64,000 nucleotides of DNA from Naegleria gruberi (GCA_000004985.1 GG738861.1), one strand, 5' to 3'; counted from the first letter of the stretch, positions 1-12,772 are shown. The notes: generated by a model not told the origin, from the sequence alone. A program made the numbers and translations.

Positions 1-938
1 CCTTCACGAGTTCCACAAACTTGTACACCATTATTTTCCATCAAATCTTCCAACCACTTTGGATTTGTCCATGATTTTTCTTCATCTGGATTACAATATT
101 GAGATTTATCCAAATTAGATCTAATAAGGGAAATTACTTTCAAATCAATCTTATTAGGAAGAGCAAATTTCAAAACATTTTCAAATTCATCCTTATTGTA
201 ATCTCCCAAACTATAATTAATTTGAACTCTATAGCCATGCTCTTTCAATAGGACCATATTTTTCATTACTTGTTCAGCACCTGCATTAATTCCAAGATAT
301 TTCTTGAAATCAGATTCTCTAGTTGTGTGCAATGAGGCATAAATTGCATCAACTTGTGGAACTTTAGGCGCTCTCAACAATCTCTCAGCAAGAAGCACAT
401 TTGAATTGAGAACAACTATTTCCAAAACAGTTCATGATAATTACATTTTCACACAAAACAATTTGTACATACCTCTAGTATTCTTCTTATCAATTGATTT
501 TAACACATCAACAATATCCTTTCTCACCAATGGTTCTCCTCCTGTAATATTCAATTGAGTACCACCAAGATCACAAAAATCATTCATCATTCTAACCAAT
601 TCTCCAACCGGAAATGGTTCCTTTCCTTGTTTTTTAATTGGTGTTTTATCACCCAATGAACGTGGATTTTCCATTCCTTCATTATGACAGAAAAAACAGT
701 TCATATTACAAGTATTCACAACAGCCACTCTAAACTTGGCATTCAACTTGTTGTAAATTTCAAAGGAATCCAAATATTCTTGTGGATATTTACCAACATG
801 TTTATTATTGGTACTATTAGTGGAATATGACATTGTATTATTGAATTGATGAGATAGAACAGCTGATGTAGCTGAGGAGGATGCCGATCTATGCAAAGAT
901 GCAGCTGCTGATGCGAAATTACAAATAGCTCTCTTCAT
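1..938 (-). CDS. MoaA/MOCS1A-like radical SAM protein (partial; continues past window start); exons 473..938 and 1..415
   Basis: Minus-strand ORF from ATG at 938. CX3CX2C cluster (VVNTCNMNCFFCHNEG). Motif ITGGEPLVRKDIVDVL resembles MoaA LTGGEPL. After a GTATGT..AG intron (416..472) the frame continues with SLHTTRESDF...VQINYSLGDYNKDEFENVLKFA, matching the MoaA second half. N-terminal S/A-rich presequence. Confidence 0.6.
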
Positions 939-1791: not shown

Positions 1792-4159
1792 TTAATCATC
1801 TTTTTTACAACATTTGATTTTTTGTGTAATTTCATGATATTTCAACAGAATCCATTGAATAATTCTCTCTCCTTGATATTTAATACTAAAACATAGAGAA
1901 TCTGGACATGATTGCCAAATGACCAAAGCACCAATGAAATAGAAAACAAAGGCAAAACTCAAAATCATGGAAATGTAAAAATTATCCAACTCTCTCACAT
2001 ATCCCTTCAATGAAATTGACTTTTCAAACATGTTATTATAGTGAGCAATTTCATGAACATAGAGCAATTCATTGAGATATCTCAAAAATGATAAATAAGG
2101 TAAAAATGGAAATGGTAATGGCATTCCAGAAAGTTCTGGAAGTGAAGGAGTCAAACCAGCAAACATGTAATTAATAAAAATAAATACTACACAAGTAATT
2201 TGTGCAACACTTTCACTTAATAGAGTTGAAATGATATATCCAATTGGAAATGTTGTAAACATTGCTAAAAATGTAAATGAAAAATAGAATCCAAATGTTT
2301 CTCTTGGTTTTACAATGAAATAAAAAGCCAATGTAAAGAATAAAGCATCAAGTACAATGTAAATCAATGAATAGATGCATTTGGTAAAATAATATACCAT
2401 GGTGTTAATTCCACTTTCAATTTCCCTTTTTCGGAAATTAACTTTCTCAGCACCAAATATTTTCAATGAACTCATAATTGATGTCAAGCTCATGGCCAAA
2501 ACAAGAGTTCCAGTAAATCCTGTAATACTATCAACATTTGGTTGTCCACAAATTTCTTTCATTTGAGATGGACATGAATCGTATATGGATTTAGAACTTT
2601 GTCCTTGGAAAACTAAATTTCCAGAAAATAAAGCAGCAATAATGAAACCACCAATAGCATTTAAAATTAAATCACCCAATAAGGTAGTCAATTGGTGAAT
2701 AGTTTGTAAGAAACATCTCAATAAACATGCAACAGCTTGAACATAGAATGGCACATGACGTATTACAATATTGCTATTACTGTTTCCAATATTAGTAGTA
2801 AAGCTATTACTAGAATTAGCAGCAATATCACTGGTAGCTAAAAGTTCTTGTTGTGATTGACTGCCATTAGTTATTGCCATCACATTCGAAAGTGAACAAA
2901 TAAAATTATACTTATTATTCGACATACCATCCACTAAAAATAGAAAATTAAATTCCAAATAGGAAATTTCCATAAATGTAAAATTAAAAAATAATTTTGT
3001 TTAATTCTTACCTCTTTCCCATGACTGCAGTAAATGATTTTGCAGGAATAAAACCTGAAACATTTTTCAATAATGTTCTTTTTGGTCCACTCACTTTAAG
3101 ATTTTTAAAAACAATATTAACACCTGAAGGTTTTTCAGACTTTCCAAAATAGGTAACTATGGAAAGCCAAGAAAATAAAAATTCCTGATAATTCACTGGA
3201 TCAAAATTAGAAATTGATTCATGAATATAAAAACAAGCCACACAACATATAATAATCTGCACCACTGTAATCCAAAATATTTTTAACATGTCATTTAAAA
3301 TTGAAGTTTGAGAATCGTCGACAAGTAAGTGAAATAGTCCACTAATATTCTTGACAGATTCAAAATTTGATGTTTTAATTCTAATGGCAATAGTATAAGT
3401 TTGATTAAATATTTGACTAGTATTAGTACTAGTTGTTGTGAGGGTAGTGTTTGTAATAGTTAATGTTCCATTATTGGTAGTATTATTTCCATTTTTGGTA
3501 TTATTTAAAATAATTGTTTGATTATATTGAGTAATAATTGTTTGATTATTTCTAAAATCATTACTAGTCAACCGCCATTGTTTTGTAAAAAATCCTGAAT
3601 AAGTTTTTTCCACATTTGTAACATCTGGTGTATAATAATCCAAACTTCCATTTATAGATTGATTATATTGCTGAAATAATGAATAATCCTTGAAAAATAT
3701 TAAATTAGTTTCCACATTCATTGCATATAAAAATAGCAATACATTTGAATCACTTGGTTTCGTCTTGTTTATCACAGTTTCTAATACATTCGTCTTGTTT
3801 CTATCCAATGGATTAATTCTCACTTGTTTAAACCAAAAATTTCTAGTAGAATTATTGGTAATATCAGAAAAGGAAACACTTTCGATATTTCTAGAAAATT
3901 CCCTAACTTTTTCCATTGAAACATTAATAATAATTAGAGAGGCAATTAAATTAAATGTGAAAAAGAAAAGAACGAGAATTGTGAGAAACCAAAATGATTT
4001 CACAATTGTTAGAAACCAGTATGAATTATTCGAAACTACTTTCTGGAAGAGAACTTTTCTATTTTGAAAAATGGCATTGATGATGGCTAGCAGTGGTGCA
4101 ATCAGTGCACATGTGAAGAAAATAACGAGGGAGATGGAGGTTAGTGCATCCCACAACAT
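1792..4159 (-). pseudogene. ABCG-like gene lacking the nucleotide-binding domain (degenerate paralog of the 4631..7554 gene)
   Basis: 5' ORF (3008..4159) encodes TM - N-glycosylation-rich ~250-aa segment - TM, then NLKVSGPKRTLLKNVSGFIPAKSFTAVMGKR (start of an ABC NBD) ending at a GTAAGA donor. The next ORF (1792..2973) encodes only the ABC-2/ABCG-type 6-TM domain. No Walker A lysine, Q-loop, LSGGQ or Walker B anywhere between them. Confidence 0.45.
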
Positions 4160-4630
4160 GTTGTTTCGAATAGAGAGTGAAGAGTGCGTTTTTTTTAATG
4201 ATGATATGTATTAAAATTAATTGGTGCAATGTTTAGTTGACACCTTCTTGTTGTTAACTGTTGATACTATCACGTTTTAAATTGGTGCACAAACAGATTC
4301 TTATTCGAATGTCAATATCAAAAAGGCCAGTTTCTAATAAAAATATGAAGAAATTATTGAACCGTTCAATGTTATTTTGTATACTAGTTCTAAATGTATC
4401 AAGAAATCAAAATGTGAAAAGGCATGTCAATTTAAAGATGCAACACTTCAGGTAAAAACGTGATCACAATAATATCACGTTTTGATTTCCAACAACAACA
4501 GTAACTGCATCATCAATATTGAACACAAAGACCAACAAGAAGAAGGTGTCAACCTAACTTTCAAAATGTTATTCTAAACAATATTCGAACATGTCACTAT
4601 TAGTGTTCATATCAATATTATAAAAAAAAA

Positions 4631-7554
4631 ATGACATATTACTATCAATCAAATTCCAAGCGGTGTGGTACCATCCTAGCCGTTCTCTTTGTCCTCTCCA
4701 TTTATGCCATGTTTGCCATTGCCACCATTGTTTTCATTCTCGTTCAATGTATTTCTATTGGAAACTCTGCTCAACAATTTAACTTTAACATTACCGAGTC
4801 AATGTTTCAATCAGCCCTAACATGTGAAGAAAAATGGTTTCTCATCAAGGAAACTCAACAACCAATCAGAACTTGTTACATTCAGAGAACTTATCAAGTC
4901 AATTCGTCCCTCCTGATTGGTGATGAACATTTGGTGAGTGTTTTTTACTCGAGTGCAGTACCATTTGATTTGTATTATTTCAAGGGAGTGGTGGCATTTT
5001 CATTGTTTAATGCTAGTGGAGTTATTGATCCATTTTCTGTGAATTATTTTCTATCGACAAGAGTGAGATCTGGTTTTAAACAATTGGATTTGTCATTGAA
5101 GGATGATTTGGAGATTCCTGTACCGTTTTTAATACCTGGAATGGATTTGCCATCGACAGAGGGTCTTCAATTTGCTGTTCGATTGTATACTTTTAATGAT
5201 AATAGTACTACTAATTATGGAAAATTTAAAAATAATTTACCTTCCAAAAATAGTAGTTTGGATACCATTACAGAATTGGAATTAAAAGACAGATATGTGC
5301 CATTATCTGAAATTACATTCCCTCTCTCCATTTCCCTTTCATACTATATAGAAACAAGCTCAATGGAGAAGAGTATTTACATTCTCGTCTCCATTCTCTG
5401 TCTCTTCCTATTATTCCTCTTCACATTAACTTGCATGACAAGATTTAAACGATTGGTTTCTTCCAGTGGTGAATTAATTGATTTTCTACCAATTACCTTA
5501 CAGAGAGTATTCAGAATTTATAGTAATAGAACAAATGATTTTGATTTTTGGATTCAATTTAATGATTTGTCATTTAAGAGTTTTGAGACAGCTGAAGATT
5601 CACTCTCTTTGAAAACTATATTACATCCTGTGAGTGGAGTTATTCCTCCTGGAAGTTTTGTTGCCATTATGGGTGAAAGTGGAAGGTTTGTAAATTATTT
5701 TTTTAACACTTTACAAAATATTATTCATATTATTTATTGAAATATTAATATAGTGGTAAAACAACATTTATTAATTGTCTAACCAAACGTATAACAGGTG
5801 GTATTTCCAAAGGTACTGTTTCCATATCAGGATTTAAGGTAGATTCTGAATCAATGAAGAGACTTTTTGCAGTTGTTCCACAATCAGATATTATCCATCC
5901 ATTCATGACACCAAAACAATCTTTTTTGGTTAGTTCCATGATTAAAAATGTTGGTGCAAGTCATTCCAAGATTGTCGAAACTGTTTTGGAAGTTTTACAA
6001 TTGGAACAACATGCAAATACTTTGAATGAGAAATTGAGTGGTGGTCAAAAGAAGAGAGTTAACATTGGTTTGGAATTGGTTACCATTCCTAAAATTCTCA
6101 TTTTGGTAAGTAATTTATTTTTGTAATATTTTTACAATAATATTTAATAATATTTAAATATTGCATTTAATATGAAATATTGAAAACAATTTAAATAGGA
6201 TGAACCTACTACTGGTCTAGATGTTACCACAGCCAATGAATTATGTCGCTCACTAAGAGATTTTGCCACTTACAAGCAAAACAAAACTGTCATGGCTGTC
6301 ATCCATCAACCTTCCTTAACTGCCTTTAATTGTTTCACACATTTAATGCTATTCAAAGAAGGCAAATTATTAAGATTCGACTCGCTTGACAGAATCAAAC
6401 ATGAAATTGCCAGCAACCATCAATACTATATTAGTCCCGACAATATCTCCGCCGACCAAGTCATGCAATATATTTATTCGAAACATGAAAAGAATCACTT
6501 TGTCCTTTCTCAATATTCAAGTCCACATGCTGCCAAAATCTATCCTCAATCAGTTTCTACCTTCCTCGTCCAATCCCTTGCAATCATGTACAGAACTTTC
6601 ATTCAAATGAGAATTGATTGGTTCTATTTCATTGTTGACATTCTTTTGAATGCAGTTGCAGGTTTATTAATTGGAATTCTATTTGTGAATAATAGAAATC
6701 ATTTATATGTTGGATCACCTAATAAGGATATTGCTTTAAATTGTCCAGTTGAAAAGATGTTACAATGCTCATCACCACAAATGGATCATATTTCATCAGT
6801 GACTAGTTTACTAGTTTTGGGAATTAGTTTAACATCTTCAATGAGTGCTTTGAGAGTTTTTGGAAGAGAAAAGTTGAATTTTGATAGAGAATCTCAATCT
6901 GGTTTGAATTCACTTGTTTATTTTATTGTAAAGGATGTGTTGGCATTCTCTCAGATGGTTTTGGTTTCTTTATCTTTTACTAGTTTGTTTTATTTGATGG
7001 TATTGCCAAATATGGATTTTGGATTTTATTTTGGAATATTACTATGTTTATCAATTATTAGTTTTCCAATTGGATATAGTATTTCAATAATATTAAGAGA
7101 TGAATTAACACAAATTACAACAGCAGTTGTTATATTCCTGTTTTATATGTTTTCAGGAGCTTCTGTTAGTTTACCATCACTCAGTGATATGAGTCAACCA
7201 TTTCCTTTATTACCATATATATCCTATATTAGATATATTAGGGAAATTTTATTTGTTTATGAACTAAATACCAATGCAAATGATTATTACATTAATAAGA
7301 GTTTAAATCAATTGGGTTATTCATGGAATAACAAATGGTTTTTATTTATCATTTGTTCTGTATTTGCAATTGGTTTGAGATGTATTGCTTATTTACTTTT
7401 ATGGCAATCGAGACCTCAATCATTTACAAAGAGAATTTCAAATCTTTGTACTTCATTGTGGAAGGTTATGAAACAACCATTCGATTTGGTCATTTCAAAA
7501 GTTAAGGAATTAATTAAGAAAATGTTAAAAAAAATGTGTTGCTGTTTTAAATAA
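4631..7554 (+). CDS. ABCG-family half transporter (NBD-TMD) with N-terminal TM/lumenal/TM extension; exons 4631..5685, 5754..6105, 6199..7554
   Basis: Exon 1 ends VAIMGESG|; exon 2 begins sGKTTFINCLTKRITGG (Walker A split by the intron) and contains LSGGQKKRVNIGLEL. Exon 3 begins DEPTTGLD (Walker B), followed by a 6-TM ABC-2 domain. GT..AG introns, frames verified. Confidence 0.75.
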
Positions 7555-7685: not shown

Positions 7686-8717
7686 TTAATAATTTGATCT
7701 TTTAATTCTATAAATAAAAAAGCAACAACATCCACAAACAACACAACAACACAAAAATGGAATGAAATACACAAAAATAATCAATGAATTCACAGCACCA
7801 CTTCCACCATCCAAAATTATAGAATTTGATATTGTAGTAGCAATTGAAAATTTGTAAGTTTCGAATGGATAATGATCTCTTTCATTATTTTCACCTCTAA
7901 CGACAACTCTAAAAGGTTCAAAGAAGGAAATATCACTACTTCCTAAATTAGTAGCAGCTCTAGTAGTACTCAAGGTTTGATTTTTACCTCTATTCACAAC
8001 CGCAATATATTTTCTCGATCCTAAATTAAGTGAAACTTTAGTATCATTCAATCTATTATTATAAATGGTATTGTCACTGTAATTTGGACTTGGGAATTCC
8101 TGAGAATAAAATTCAAATCCAAAATCCAAACCTCTCTCAATGATAATTGATTGATCTGATGATGATAATGATGAAATTATTGATGAAGATGGAATAATTT
8201 GATAGAATGCCCAACTGCCAACTGTCAAAATAGTAGATGTGATTGATTTTCCTGAATTAATACTTATTAAATAATCTGATGGAAAAGTATATCCTGTAAT
8301 ACCATAAGAATAGTAAGTATTTCTTTGAGCTGCAACTGCGATATATAACGTCTGATAAGTAAGTGATGAATTTCTACTTGTATAAGTATTTGAGAAATAA
8401 CAAGTTCTGCATTCATATCTATCATCATAACTTGTTTGTGTTGGTACGGAATTTAATTTGAAATAAACTGTCAAACTATCAGAACTGCCAACATCTACTT
8501 TGACAAGAGCATTTTTTGGAATAATCAAATAGTAAAGATCATAATATCCATATTTAGGTGATGAATAGCTTTGAAAAACTGCAGATTCAAGTTGTTTTTG
8601 ATTACGAAGTGTTTGTCCATTACATGTGGAAAGGAAAGTAAAGCAACAGAACAGTAGAAGTAGAAGTGTTAACAGTGCCTTCTTTGATTTTAACATTTTT
8701 TTTTCGTGATATGACAT
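7686..8717 (-). CDS. Type I membrane glycoprotein, unknown function
   Basis: Signal peptide (MLKSKKALLTLLLLLFCCFTFLSTCNG), S/T/N-rich ectodomain, C-terminal TM followed by a Cys-rich tail (CCCVVCGCCCFF). Confidence 0.45.
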   Translation of the reverse strand: MSYHEKKMLKSKKALLTLLLLLFCCFTFLSTCNGQTLRNQKQLESAVFQSYSSPKYGYYDLYYLIIPKNALVKVDVGSSDSLTVYFKLNSVPTQTSYDDRYECRTCYFSNTYTSRNSSLTYQTLYIAVAAQRNTYYSYGITGYTFPSDYLISINSGKSITSTILTVGSWAFYQIIPSSSIISSLSSSDQSIIIERGLDFGFEFYSQEFPSPNYSDNTIYNNRLNDTKVSLNLGSRKYIAVVNRGKNQTLSTTRAATNLGSSDISFFEPFRVVVRGENNERDHYPFETYKFSIATTISNSIILDGGSGAVNSLIIFVYFIPFLCCCVVCGCCCFFIYRIKRSNY

Positions 8718-9280
8718 TTGAATTATCTATTTGAAATAGTATTGTCCATTCAAGAGTTGGCACATTCCGAAACGTGATTGAACTGTAGTGTGTTATTTTT
8801 CTGAATTGCACCAATTACAAAATTTACATCACGTTTTTTTCATCATTTACCCTTAGAAATTTATTATTTAGTTTAGCACTGATCCGGTCAACAACAAGAT
8901 TATGATGGTAAGGGCAATGTATTGAAGAGTGAATAGTGGATATTTATCTCTATTGAATATCATGCTTCCATCATTTAACGTAATTTTTTTTGGCAACATT
9001 TAAGGATGAACCTAATGGTGATGATTCTCTCTGCATCAGCACCATCATCATCATAAGGCTGTAAAAGAAAAACATTTTCTTGTTCTTAATAGAGATCATG
9101 AGCACAGAGATTATGAACATCTATTATTATTGCATCTACTCGTTTTTAACGGCCACTTTGATATAATATGAACAAGAGAAATTATAAGAAAAAAAGCCTT
9201 GATATTAATCATCGTTATATTCTGTTTGGTTTGATTTGATTATTAATCAACTAACATTAAGAATCATCATCTTCATCATA

Positions 9281-11040
9281 ATGAGTTATAATAGAACAAC
9301 CAATAATAATACTAACAACAATGAGGATAAATCCATCCGAGTTGGAAATAGACTCAATGCAAAGGTGGGTAAAATAGCATCAATGTACAATGCTCTTGAT
9401 AATGACTCTCACGCTACTATTAAGAGAAGAAATCCAATTAGTGGAACCACATCATCCAATGTAACAACCAAAGTTGTTTCAAGCACTGTGCAGACGAGAA
9501 CAGTGGCTAAGAAACCAACCCCAACCACACATCATTCTACTGTAAATTCAATGAAACCCTCTGCAGTTACGAATACAAACAAATCGAGAAATGTTGGTGC
9601 AGTTTCAAAACCTGTGGTAAAGACAACAACAAAAACAAGTACTGTGACAAGTAATATTGATAAGAGAGATGCCAATGATAGGAAAGCTGTTGAAAGGAAG
9701 GAGGTGAATGATAAGAAAGCAGAAGTAACAGTTGTCAATAATCATCAGAATAAGTATTTTGATAACTTTAAACCACAACCATTTCAATGTGATGCTTCAA
9801 GAATTAGAAAATATGAACCTAATTATTCTGAAATAGATAAGAGAGCTAGGAATACACCTAAATCTGAGGAAGCTTCTATTGAGAGACTTGCTCAATATTT
9901 AACTTCTCCCTACAATACTGTGGAAGAAAAAGCTAGGTCACTTTACATTTGGATTACATATAATATTGACTATGATGTAGATGGTCTGTATTCTGGAAAT
10001 GCACATTATACTGCAGACACATCCTTTAAGAGTAGAAGAGCTGTGTGCAGTGGATATTCTGATATTTTGAAAAAGATGTGTGACTGCTGTAAAATGGAGT
10101 GTGTTACAATATCAGGTTGTGCAAAAGGAGCTGGTTATGTGATTGGTGCGCCAGTAGCTTCAAATCATGCATGGTCTGCCATCAAAACTGAAGATGGTCA
10201 ATATAGATTGATCGAGTCAACTTGGGGATCAGGCTATCTTGCACCAAACAGTAGCTCAAAATGGGGATCAGCCTTTGAAAGAAGATTTGTGGATAGGTAC
10301 TTCTTTATGAGTCCATATGAATTCATTGCAGAGCATTTTCCAGACGATTCCAAGTGGCAACTCTTACCAAAAACTGTAACCAAGGAAGAATATGAAAAGA
10401 GAGTTGCTATTAAAGGCAACGGGTTCAGCAATGGATTGAGTTGTGTTTCCCATCCCTATGGGCTTTATACTTTAACTGATTCAAATGTTTGTGAAATTGT
10501 GATGAAAGTTTTTCCAGGAACTGAATCCTTGATCAATCTCTGTGAGGAAAAGAATGGAACAGCTCTCTGGGATGCTGTCAATGTCACATATTCTGACAAT
10601 AAGGACACAATTACAGCAAAGATTTGTTTCCCAAAAAAGAATGTAAAATATTCTGTCAGAGTGTTTGTTGGAGAAAAGGGAAGTAAATTAGAATGGGTTT
10701 GGAGCAAATGTTCACGGTGAGTCCATCAGCTAAGGTTGATGATAGAGGTTTTCCAACGATGTATTCAGACTTTGGTTCCCTTAATCTTTCCTTGGTCACT
10801 CCTAATTTTGGTAAATTATCTAAAAACTCAACATACACTCTAGAAATTGCAACCAAAGGAATGCCTATTGATTTAATGATAACAGGAACTAACTCTGGCA
10901 CTACAATGCACAGTCATAAGGGAGGAGGTAATTGTAAATGTTCATTCACAACCGGTGTTGACCCTAACGTTACTGTTTTTGGAAAAACTGATCCAAACAC
11001 AAGAAATTACAAAGGATTACTTGTTTATAAAGTTGGTTAA
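9281..11040 (+). CDS. Transglutaminase-like (papain-fold) domain protein with S/T/N-rich N-terminus; apparent -1 frameshift near 10687-10718
   Basis: CSGYSD ... NHAWSAIK ... ESTWGSG is a Cys/His/Asp-type transglutaminase-like core. The ORF frame changes by -1 between 10687 and 10718, and the downstream ORF 10693..11040 continues the protein. Confidence 0.55.
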
Positions 11041-12179
11041 TTCTTGAAATCAATTTCCTTACATATCCAATTCAATTTTTTGTTTAAATCTTCATCCATT
11101 GTTGAATAATCGTTCACATCTCTGAAATAAAAGTACACCTTCTTCTCAAAAGCATCAACTATTACAATGGATTGACTTTTAGACTTCCAGTTTGTAAATC
11201 TGGACTTGTAGTGTACAAACACTTCGTTAATAGTGCTTCTATCATAAAGATGAATATCAATCTTCCTTTCAAGACTATACTTCTCAGTAAGGTCTGTACA
11301 TGTTCTATATTTTTGAACTAGTTCGACTAATTCCTCGCTAAAATTATGGAGTGTCATATATTCATCCGTGAATAAATGAGCATCTTCTATTGAAATGAAG
11401 TTATTCTCATATTTGTTAATATTCCTTATATTTAAAAGACTGCTTAAGGTTTCCACAACCTGATCAGGAGTTTTATCATCTGTTACCATTTCTTTGCATA
11501 TTTGGTTTGTTCCCTCTTTAAGGCTTTTTACTTTTTGCCACAGATTATCATTTAAAAATGAATTTGAAATACAATGAGTCGAATTTTTGTCTAAACTTTG
11601 AATGATCAGTTTGTCTTGCAACTTTTCAGGCCATTGAGACAATGGTTTTCCCATTTCATTTCTAGCGAAAATTCTATTTGTAAAATAAATCAAGTCCTTA
11701 TTCATGTCAAACAAATTTCCACAAATAATTATAAAACCCTTTGTTTTTAGCCAATCCTTCTCGCATTCATTAATATGATCCATCAAATCATTATGCTTTA
11801 GTAAATCGATTAGGAGTTTGCTCCTAATTATTTTAGCTGGTTTTTTAGTTTCAGTAACACATTCCTCAGTTGCTACTAATTGATTATTTACATCCTTATT
11901 ATACAATTCTAGTGTTGGTTTGTTCGTTGAGTAATCATCATCCACGTTAGTTAGAATAGCCATATTTCCATTATCAATATTTATCCCCATCCAAGTATTT
12001 CCATACACCAAATCAGTAATACAGCAAATGCAATCATCAATTAATGAAAATGAAGAGGAAGTCGGTCTATCATATTCTTCATCTCGATTCGCCAACATAA
12101 TGAACGGATATCTTGCAGATGAAGTTGCTGCATCACAACAATTTGAACCAGTGGTAGTATGAAGAGCAACAATACACAT
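11037..12179 (-). CDS. TANGO2/NRDE-family protein
   Basis: Starts MCIVAL (N-terminal Cys after Met). ANRDEEYDRPT, NTWMGIN and AILTN match TANGO2 ANRDEFYSRPS, GGTWLGI and AALTN. Single exon. Confidence 0.7.
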   Translation of the reverse strand: MCIVALHTTTGSNCCDAATSSARYPFIMLANRDEEYDRPTSSSFSLIDDCICCITDLVYGNTWMGINIDNGNMAILTNVDDDYSTNKPTLELYNKDVNNQLVATEECVTETKKPAKIIRSKLLIDLLKHNDLMDHINECEKDWLKTKGFIIICGNLFDMNKDLIYFTNRIFARNEMGKPLSQWPEKLQDKLIIQSLDKNSTHCISNSFLNDNLWQKVKSLKEGTNQICKEMVTDDKTPDQVVETLSSLLNIRNINKYENNFISIEDAHLFTDEYMTLHNFSEELVELVQKYRTCTDLTEKYSLERKIDIHLYDRSTINEVFVHYKSRFTNWKSKSQSIVIVDAFEKKVYFYFRDVNDYSTMDEDLNKKLNWICKEIDFKN

Positions 12180-12772
12180 TTTTTTCAATTTTGATTTTGC
12201 AATCCCGAGTTCATCACATGTTCATTGTTCTTTAAATAATATAAAGCAGAACAAGGTTCATCATGATTCTTTACAATTTGTATTCTTTGGCAAATCTTAA
12301 GAAGATTATTTTATATTTATCAACACTTAATACATTAAAGAAGTTACAACATCTGTTGTTCCTAGTTGAATTCCTTAACTTTTGTTTGGAAAATATTAAG
12401 GATGTAATAGTTGTTCGTTGAAGATGAACATGTTCATCATCACTCTCATCTTAATATTTTCCAAATTATAAGTATCAGTTGCCTCGATTCCATAAGAGAT
12501 ATAGTAAGATTTTTTCTCATCAAAAGTTCGCAAAGAATCTGTGTACATTTTGCTCTCGATTGCAACCAACACTGGTTCCTAATCGAGACTTTTTTGGATA
12601 CCTGTAAGACTTTTTAGTGTAGAGGTGTAATGGGTCCTTTGAAAATAAACTGTAAAATTGAGGCAAGCCTTAACGAACTCTCTTCTACAATAGAGCGCCA
12701 AGTCTCTCCTAATAACAAACCACAAAAAAAGATACTAAGGCTGAAGGGAATATATTGAAAATTTTTATCATC

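What the first reader, a model, noticed from the sequence alone, without database searches (positions are those of the whole stretch)
1792..7554. Head-to-head ABCG-type paralogs with an unusual N-terminal TM/lumenal/TM module; one copy has lost its entire ATPase core
Both genes start with a TM helix, a ~250-300-aa N-glycosylation-motif-rich segment and a second TM helix before the NBD begins (VSGxIPxxSFxAxMG). This is not the canonical ABCG NBD-TMD layout. The plus-strand copy is intact, with Walker A split by an intron plus LSGGQ, Walker B and a 6-TM ABC-2 domain. The minus-strand copy goes from ...AVMGKR| (GTAAGA donor) directly into the 6-TM domain ORF. No Walker A lysine, signature or Walker B is present anywhere in the locus. 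The only in-frame acceptor I can find (ACCAG at ~2858) would delete about 220 residues. This is either a decaying duplicate or an NBD-less TMD protein. The lumenal modules of the two copies are not obviously similar to each other.
Basis: seen in the sequence. Interest (0 to 1): 0.5.

Follow-up and report, generated by a model that had tools for sequence, protein, structure and literature searches.

The report
Naegleria ABCG gene pair, one gutted
Two divergently transcribed Naegleria gruberi ABCG-type transporter genes carry a lineage-specific extra membrane-anchored outer domain, and one copy has lost its whole ATP-burning engine, most likely as a very recent gene-killing deletion rather than a new kind of transporter.

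Summary
My plus-strand model is 100% identical to NAEGRDRAFT_79337 (920 aa): TM, beta-rich lumenal domain, TM, intact ABCG-type NBD, ABC-2 TMD.

The minus-strand copy has the same N-module and the first ~40 NBD residues (to AVMGK). It then has a 78-nt intron-like stretch and continues, out of frame, into an intact TMD ORF. About 225-230 residues are missing, including Walker A lysine, signature, Walker B and H-loop. No NBD lies elsewhere in the 64 kb. The public annotation splits this copy into two predicted proteins (66288 and 66287).

N. lovaniensis and N. fowleri have the same head-to-head pair, and their minus copies keep full NBDs. The loss is therefore specific to the gruberi lineage.

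Both gruberi ORFs are open. The TMD keeps all 42 family-invariant residues and shows no rate acceleration. So either the deletion is very recent (no more than about 2.5% neutral divergence) or the remnants are still used. No transcript data could be reached.

The N-module occurs only in Naegleria and Willaertia among 1.84 billion representative proteins. The modules of the two copies are homologous. Interest is modest.

The parts
4631..7554 (+). Intact paralog NAEGRDRAFT_79337 (920 aa). Exons 4631-5685, 5754-6105, 6199-7554; introns 5686-5753 and 6106-6198.
   Evidence: My model is 100% identical to the public protein P0001. Pfam ABC_tran plus ABC2_membrane_7.
4661..5449 (+). N-module of the plus copy: TM helix (aa ~10-47), beta-rich lumenal domain (~aa 47-242), second TM helix (aa ~243-279).
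   Evidence: Hydropathy. AlphaFold2 with a 7-sequence alignment, pLDDT 72.7: helix, beta domain, helix. Profile hits only in Naegleria and Willaertia.
5528..6381 (+). NBD of the plus copy (interrupted by both introns): Walker A GESGSGKTT, LSGGQKKR, ILILDEPTTGLD, VIHQPS.
   Evidence: The best PDB sequence matches are ABCG/PDR NBDs: Cdr1 2e-43, AtABCG25 1e-34, ABCG1 5e-32.
6544..7431 (+). ABC-2 type transmembrane domain of the plus copy.
   Evidence: PF19055 hit at aa 675-871. Alignment with family members.
4160..4630 (.). 471-bp shared intergenic region between the two start codons (presumed bidirectional promoter). It holds three ATCACGTTTT copies (two forming a palindrome, 4455-4483) and two AATTGGTGCA copies.
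3008..4159 (-). Minus copy, ORF-A. Two N-terminal hydrophobic segments, an N/T-rich lumenal domain, TM2 (aa 286-317) and the NBD stub. It ends ...AVMGK at the donor AG|GTAAGA (last exon base 3012); the read-through stop is at 3008-3010. Publicly annotated only from the internal Met at 3916 (NAEGRDRAFT_66288, 302 aa).
   Evidence: It is 30% identical to the N. lovaniensis minus-copy N-module.
3014..3133 (-). Remnant of the NBD: the first beta-strands up to the residue before Walker A (GVNIVFKNLKVSGPKRTLLKNVSGFIPAKSFTAVMGK).
   Evidence: tblastn shows 47% identity to residues 1-36 of the N. lovaniensis minus NBD. Family alignment.
2934..3011 (-). 78-nt intron-like stretch (GTAAGA...TTTTTAG), two codons upstream of the position of the Walker-A intron of the plus copy. 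Splicing it gives ...GKSGWYVE followed by a stop at 2915-2917.
   Evidence: Sequence. Enumeration of in-frame alternatives.
1792..2973 (-). Minus copy, ORF-B (393 codons): a ~60-aa leader with no significant match to any NBD part, then an intact ABC-2 TMD (about 1897-2754). Publicly annotated from the Met at 2880 (NAEGRDRAFT_66287, 362 aa).
   Evidence: The TMD keeps all 42 family-invariant residues.

Best explanation
The locus is a divergently transcribed pair from a subfamily of ABCG half-transporters restricted to Naegleria and Willaertia. In this subfamily the usual NBD-TMD unit is preceded by a TM helix, a beta-sandwich lumenal/extracellular domain and a second TM helix. The plus copy is a complete, presumably working transporter subunit.

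The minus copy suffered a deletion, in the N. gruberi lineage, of about 225-230 codons. The deleted part runs from Walker A to the end of the NBD and is not a multiple of three. With the canonical 78-nt intron removed, the message terminates six codons later. The gene is therefore most likely a very young pseudogene. It may be a deletion allele of one haplotype, or a change specific to the long-cultured reference strain. Its two halves have not yet had time to accumulate stops.

Shown:
- the anatomy;
- the absence of any NBD core;
- the presence of the NBD in the N. lovaniensis and N. fowleri counterparts;
- the frame break;
- the intactness and conservation of the remnants.

Inferred:
- that the remnants are non-functional;
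- that the event is recent.
For: NBD core is absent from the minus copy:
- Pfam finds ABC_tran only in the plus copy.
- No NBD-like sequence beyond the 36-residue stub is found in 64 kb.

The counterparts are intact:
- N. lovaniensis (L001) and N. fowleri (L002) have the same head-to-head pair, and their minus genes carry ABC_tran with all motifs.
- The TMD tree groups the gruberi minus copy with those two in 100% of bootstraps.

The reading frame is broken:
- The best splice signals (GTAAGA ... TTTTCTATTTTTAG) give a frameshift and a stop.
- The public annotation could not make one gene of it and calls two fragments.

The event must be recent if it is neutral:
- Under neutrality the chance of both ORFs staying open falls below 5% at K of about 0.025 substitutions per site. 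A pseudogene must therefore be very young, which fits the lack of any rate acceleration.

Context:
- Naegleria is described as a mainly heterozygous diploid. Most of its ABC transporters (22 of 33) are accessory genes in the pangenome (PMC9928731), so gain and loss in this family is common.
Against: - Both remnants are perfectly open (383 and 393 codons in DNA of about 28% GC).
- The NBD stub, TM2 and TMD are as conserved as in the intact relatives. There are 6-7 unique changes at otherwise invariant TMD sites, against 13 in the intact N. lovaniensis minus copy.
- At outgroup-conserved sites the gruberi copy has 16 unique changes and the lovaniensis copy 22.
- Several GT/AG combinations would join the two ORFs in frame, for example CAG|GTTTTA at 3055 to the same TTTTTAG acceptor, giving 748 aa.
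- Catching a pseudogene within about 2.5% neutral divergence of its birth needs some luck.
- No expression data of any kind could be obtained.
Confidence: 0.5

Rival explanations
1. The minus copy still makes functional NBD-less protein. One route is a single fusion of about 740 aa (N-module joined to TMD through an in-frame alternative splice). The other is two separate membrane proteins, as annotated. The TMD part would pair with an NBD-bearing relative, such as the co-regulated neighbour 79337 or paralog 66992, and act as a regulatory or dominant-negative partner. Alternatively it would recruit an NBD in trans, as bacterial-type split ABC systems do.
For: - Both ORFs are open. The TMD retains all 42 invariant residues and shows no rate acceleration.
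- The NBD stub and TM2 are conserved.
- In-frame splice options exist.
- The copy shares a 471-bp divergent promoter region with the intact paralog.
Against: - The best splice signals give a frameshift.
- ABC catalysis needs two NBDs forming a sandwich dimer (established knowledge), and no ABCG is known to work with an NBD-less partner.
- No stand-alone NBD gene lies in the window.
- The otherwise length-invariant intracellular motif (F-x-RE-x-x-G-x-N, presumably NBD-facing by analogy with other ABCGs; not mapped to a structure here) has a unique one-residue insertion and substitutions in this copy only: FRKREIESGIN against FxRESQSGxN. That fits loss of its partner surface.
- There is no transcript or protein evidence.
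Confidence: 0.3
2. The deletion is an assembly or sequencing artefact. The real N. gruberi gene would then be intact, or at least in frame.
For: The remnants look exactly like a living gene with a piece cut out. The frame break would vanish with a 1-nt error near the junction. The reference is a single draft assembly of a heterozygous organism (PMC9928731).
Against: - There are no Ns or repeats at the junction.
- The junction carries a well-formed intron and a ~60-aa leader unrelated to NBD sequence (30 of 300 and 18 of 300 shuffles score as high). A simple collapse would not create these.
- Losing about 700 bp cleanly inside a unique gene is an unusual assembly error.
Confidence: 0.1
3. The NBD of the minus gene is encoded by exons elsewhere (distant exons or trans-splicing).
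For: None beyond the presence of a good donor site at 3012.
Against: tblastn with the orthologous NBD and the paralogous NBD finds nothing else in 64 kb at E up to 10. ORF-B begins within 40 nt of the intron's acceptor. Family introns are 68-125 nt.
Confidence: 0.03

Closest known systems
ABCG (White/WBC) half-transporters, e.g. human ABCG1/ABCG2/ABCG5-G8 and Arabidopsis ABCG25
   Same: Reverse order, with the NBD before an ABC-2 type six-helix TMD. The NBD of the plus copy matches ABCG/PDR NBDs best among solved structures. Pfam gives ABC_tran plus ABC2_membrane. Paired Cys residues sit between the first two TM segments of the TMD (Q-C-P...C).
   Different: About 300 extra N-terminal residues form TM / beta-sandwich ectodomain / TM, giving 8 rather than 6 helices per subunit. 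The TMD sequence is too diverged for any PDB sequence hit. The minus copy has no NBD at all.
Long half-size ABCGs with an N-terminal extension before the NBD (plant ABCG24/ABCG28 class, about 1040-1112 aa; metagenomic example L004)
   Same: An extracytoplasmic N-terminal domain anchored by an extra TM helix directly upstream of the NBD. L004 encodes a ~900-aa Cys-rich ectodomain, a TM, an NBD and a TMD in one ORF. The lengths of maize ABCG24/28-like proteins are listed in PMC9409143. The architecture of the plant proteins is from my own recollection and was not tested here.
   Different: The Naegleria module is a different domain, bracketed by two TM helices rather than a signal peptide plus one TM. 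Its sequence family is confined to Naegleria and Willaertia.
GOLD domains of p24/TMED cargo receptors
   Different: No sequence similarity (8-10% identity). No Pfam GOLD hit. No Foldseek match reaches E 0.001. The model has only moderate confidence, and the Naegleria domain is about twice as large.
Split, bacterial-type eukaryotic ABC systems with a stand-alone TMD protein (e.g. rice STAR2 with the NBD protein STAR1; own knowledge)
   Same: If ORF-B is expressed alone it would be a TMD-only ABC protein needing an NBD in trans.
   Different: Those systems are ancestrally split and have a dedicated NBD partner. Here the split is a recent deletion in a fused gene, and no partner is evident.

Membership tests
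ABCG half-transporter | ABC ATPase domain with Walker A, Q-loop, signature, Walker B and H-loop | tested here: met
   Plus copy: PF00005 2e-23 and all motifs read in the sequence.
ABCG half-transporter | ABC ATPase domain present (applied to the minus copy) | tested here: not met
   No PF00005 hit in ORF-A or ORF-B. Only a 36-residue N-terminal stub remains.
ABCG half-transporter | Reverse domain order (NBD N-terminal to an ABC-2 type TMD) | tested here: met
   Plus copy: NBD at aa 331-474, TMD at aa 675-871. Minus copy: the NBD stub precedes a PF01061 TMD.
ABCG half-transporter | NBD closer to ABCG/PDR than to other ABC subfamilies | tested here: met
   Top PDB sequence hits are Cdr1/Pdr5, AtABCG25, ABCG1 and ABCG5. 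ABCA and ABCB score lower.
Naegleria/Willaertia N-module ABCG subfamily (defined here) | Match to the TM / lumenal / TM module profile upstream of the NBD | tested here: met
   Both window copies match (1.9e-126 and 2.3e-92, though both were in the profile). Independent hits: N. fowleri 1e-99, N. gruberi 66992 cluster 2.5e-48, Willaertia 2e-10. Nothing else real was found among 1.84e9 representatives.
GOLD domain (p24/TMED type) | Sequence-family membership (Pfam GOLD/EMP24) | tested here: not met
   No Pfam family matches either N-module at E up to 0.1.
GOLD domain (p24/TMED type) | Fold similarity | tested here: inconclusive
Pseudogene | Loss of an essential part and a broken reading frame relative to intact orthologs | tested here: met
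   About 225-230 residues are missing, and canonical splicing gives a stop after 6 codons.
Pseudogene | Relaxed constraint (extra stops, accelerated substitution at conserved sites) | tested here: not met
   No internal stops in 383 + 393 codons. 42 of 42 invariant TMD residues are kept. No relative-rate excess.
Pseudogene | No productive transcript or protein | not testable with these tools
   Neither the exact ORFs nor near-identical proteins occur in any read-derived assembly on record. No paper mentions the gene ids.

The most novel reading that the evidence does not exclude
The NBD-less copy is a living gene. It would be a membrane protein keeping the lineage-specific ectodomain and the ABCG transmembrane domain but no ATPase. 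Co-expressed from a shared divergent promoter with its intact paralog, it would form an asymmetric complex with it or titrate it. That would be the first ABCG-type assembly with a naturally NBD-free subunit, and a natural experiment on what an ABC-2 TMD can do without its own motor.
Probability: 0.2. Interest if true: 0.6.

Novelty: new variant of a known kind. Interest (0 to 1): 0.32.

Why it matters
There are two modest points.

First, Naegleria and Willaertia have an undescribed ABCG subfamily in which a two-helix-anchored beta-sandwich ectodomain precedes the NBD. All members carry only automatic labels such as 'predicted protein' in public databases. ABCG proteins commonly move lipids and sterols, and the pathogen N. 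fowleri has two intact members. An outward-facing domain fused to the transporter could act as a substrate acceptor or a sorting signal, which makes it worth a look.

Second, the gutted copy is a clean, datable example of how an ABC gene dies, or is repurposed. The three-species comparison fixes the direction of change. The remnants are so well preserved that a single RNA-seq alignment would decide between pseudogene and NBD-less protein.

The finding also corrects the public annotation. NAEGRDRAFT_66288 and 66287 are two halves of one former gene, and 66288 probably starts at 4159, not 3916.

Tried and rejected
- A homology search with the concatenated minus ORFs returned nothing. The N/T-rich low-complexity stretch swamped the word index, so the search was wasted.
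- A TMD-profile search through the same index found only the gruberi protein itself.
- Exact-sequence look-ups of the two minus ORFs and of the N. gruberi proteins in the contig index failed: N. gruberi is not on record there. No transcript-derived contigs could be reached.
- Literature searches for Naegleria ABCG and for the locus tags or UniProt ids gave nothing relevant. The ABCG28 paper is not held.
- Single-sequence AlphaFold2 of the 920-aa protein failed (pLDDT 36.5). The AFDB library was unavailable.
- The metagenome scan gave only distant ABCGs at 27-31% identity and no N. gruberi relatives.
- Flanking synteny between the window and the N. lovaniensis and N. fowleri loci: none beyond the pair itself.
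- Ka/Ks was not attempted. Protein identity of 37-44% between copies implies saturated synonymous sites.
- A possible match of the ORF-B leader to the D-loop region after Walker B (TNGSQSQQELL against TSGLDSKQALL) is not significant: 30 of 300 and 18 of 300 shuffles score as high.
- The dictyostelid origin is rejected.
Full report
**What is there**

The window is Naegleria gruberi. My three-exon model of the plus-strand gene (4631-5685, 5754-6105, 6199-7554) is 100% identical over 920 aa to the public 'predicted protein' NAEGRDRAFT_79337 / D2VBP6. The AT-rich, short-intron look misled it.

The plus protein reads as follows.
- A hydrophobic helix at aa ~10-47.
- About 200 residues with five N-x-S/T sequons.
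- A second helix at aa ~243-273.
- A complete ABC ATPase: GESGSGKTT, LSGGQKKR, ILILDEPTTGLD, VIHQPS (Pfam ABC_tran 2e-23).
- An ABC-2 transmembrane domain (PF19055 8e-17).

By sequence the NBD is closest to ABCG/PDR NBDs among solved structures: Cdr1 2e-43, AtABCG25 1e-34, ABCG1 5e-32.

**The minus copy**

The minus copy starts 471 bp away, at 4159.
- ORF-A (382 codons to the donor) encodes two hydrophobic segments, a lumenal segment packed with sequons and carrying a long N/T-rich insert, a further helix (aa 286-317), and the first ~40 residues of an NBD. It ends ...FTAVMGK at AG|GTAAGA.
- A well-formed 78-nt intron-like stretch ends in TTTTCTATTTTTAG. Splicing it yields ...GKSGWYVE and a stop.
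- One base out of frame, ORF-B (393 codons, 2973->1792) runs through a ~60-residue leader into an ABC-2 TMD (PF01061 1.3e-14).
- Neither ORF has an ABC_tran hit. tblastn with the paralogous and the orthologous NBD finds only the short stub and nothing else in the 64 kb.
- The 3012 donor has in-frame acceptors at 2860, 2830, 2809 and further on. Other donor/acceptor pairs, such as 3055 to 2933, are also clean. So the sequence alone does not decide splicing.
- The public annotation gives two fragments. NAEGRDRAFT_66288 (302 aa) runs from an internal Met to the read-through stop and lacks the first helices. NAEGRDRAFT_66287 (362 aa) is the TMD only.

**Comparison with relatives**

N. lovaniensis (L001) and N. 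fowleri (L002) each carry the same head-to-head pair, and in both the minus gene has a full NBD. Willaertia magna has a single family member at the locus examined, with no partner gene beside it.

A neighbour-joining tree of the TMD gives these groupings:
- The gruberi minus copy groups with the two intact minus genes (100% bootstrap).
- A second gruberi gene on another scaffold, NAEGRDRAFT_66992, groups with the lovaniensis and fowleri plus genes (100%).
- The window's plus gene is sister to that clade (85%).

The window pair is therefore either a fast-evolving positional ortholog of the L001/L002 pair or an older paralogous pair. Two facts bear on this. The plus-plus and minus-minus distances are equal (0.53), against 0.35 for 66992. 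There is no flanking synteny. I could not resolve the question. Either way the ancestor of the minus lineage had an NBD, and the gruberi copy lost it. Its relatives have 284-285 residues between AVMG and VPFY, where gruberi has about 60 unrelated ones.

**Dead or alive**

Arguments for decay:
- The catalytic core is gone.
- The deletion is out of frame with respect to the best splice sites.
- No partner NBD is nearby.
- The otherwise length-invariant F-x-RE-S-Q-S-G-x-N motif of the TMD carries a unique insertion and substitutions in this copy only.

Arguments against long-standing decay:
- Both ORFs are open.
- The TMD keeps all 42 residues that are invariant across the eight family members.
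- It has only 6-7 private changes at otherwise invariant sites, against 13 for the intact lovaniensis minus gene.
- A relative-rate count shows no acceleration, 16 against 22.

From the codon content of the two ORFs, neutral evolution would leave both open with less than 5% probability once K exceeds about 0.025 substitutions per site, before counting indels. So either the deletion is very young or the remnants are still under selection.

Naegleria is reported to be a mainly heterozygous diploid with a largely accessory ABC repertoire (PMC9928731). The reference is also a long-cultured axenic clone (own knowledge). I therefore favour a recent deletion allele (about 0.5) over a functional NBD-less product (about 0.3), an artefact (about 0.1) or distant exons (about 0.03). 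No transcript evidence could be reached with the tools.

**The N-terminal module**

A profile-profile comparison gives 96% probability and E 4e-9. It aligns the FY-S-x-V-P-x-D-L-Y-Y-F-K core of the lumenal domain as well as TM2 and the NBD start.

An exhaustive HMMER search of a three-sequence module profile against 1.84 billion representative proteins found only N. gruberi (three genes), N. fowleri, two Naegleria-like environmental fragments and Willaertia magna. There was also one spurious TPR hit. The lovaniensis and fowleri minus modules were themselves missed, so sensitivity is limited.

An N-terminal ectodomain anchored in front of the NBD is not unique to this family. A metagenomic ABCG (L004) has a ~900-aa Cys-rich ectodomain and one TM before its NBD. 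Plant ABCG24/28-type proteins are similarly long (their architecture is from memory). The Naegleria domain itself is new.

**Verdict**

The finding is a lineage-restricted variant of the ABCG architecture plus a freshly gutted paralog. It has modest general interest and is easily settled by one RNA-seq alignment and one read-level check.

Noticed in passing
window 4219-4483 and 8807-8837 (also 38572): ATCACGTTTT occurs 5 times in the window (0.17 expected). Three copies lie in the 471-bp divergent intergenic region, two of them as a palindrome AAAACGTGAT-N9-ATCACGTTTT at 4455-4483. AATTGGTGCA occurs 3 times (0.21 expected), twice in the same region. Both motifs recur together upstream of the next gene, at 8807-8837. 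N. lovaniensis and N. fowleri share a conserved ATATCACGAATCAT element in their equivalent intergenic regions. This is a candidate shared promoter element.
   Followed up: partly
window 3916-4159 (minus strand): The public model NAEGRDRAFT_66288 starts at an internal Met (3916) and omits two hydrophobic segments that the open frame supplies from the ATG at 4159. Without them the lumenal domain would have no signal anchor, so the annotated start is probably wrong.
   Followed up: partly
N. gruberi paralog P0131 (NAEGRDRAFT_66992, other scaffold): N. gruberi has a third family member. It is much closer to the N. lovaniensis and N. fowleri plus genes (distance 0.35) than the window's plus gene is (0.53). 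The window pair may therefore be an older paralogous pair rather than the ortholog of the L001/L002 pair. Whether 66992 has its own minus-type neighbour could not be checked.
   Followed up: partly
L001 13445-13625 (N. lovaniensis P0002 C-terminus): The annotated N. lovaniensis plus protein ends in ...SAEKSWYTHSTKDARTIRRLELPSTRFLSYFVCRG..., which is unrelated to the last TM helix present in N. fowleri, N. gruberi and Willaertia. This is likely a missed intron or frameshift in that annotation, or a real C-terminal truncation.
   Followed up: no
L004 821-5281: A metagenomic contig (35% GC) encodes a single-ORF ABCG. It has a ~900-aa N-terminal ectodomain rich in CPxGxYC-type repeats and one TM helix before the NBD. 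This is a different solution to the same 'ectodomain in front of the NBD' layout.
   Followed up: no
window 3420-3560 (minus strand, ORF-A aa ~200-250): An N/T-rich low-complexity insert (NNQTIITQYNQTIILNNTKNGNNTTNNGTLTITNTTLTTTSTNTS) is absent from the N. lovaniensis and N. fowleri minus copies. It supplies about ten of the sequons and falls where the plus-copy model has a low-confidence loop.
   Followed up: no
window 1-938, 7686-8717, 9236-10720, 11037-12188: Neighbouring genes are a radical-SAM protein (minus strand, runs off the window start), a 343-aa protein with a hydrophobic N-terminus, a hydrophobic C-terminal tail and no Pfam match, a transglutaminase-core protein and a TANGO2 homolog. 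None is syntenic with the N. lovaniensis or N. fowleri loci.
   Followed up: partly
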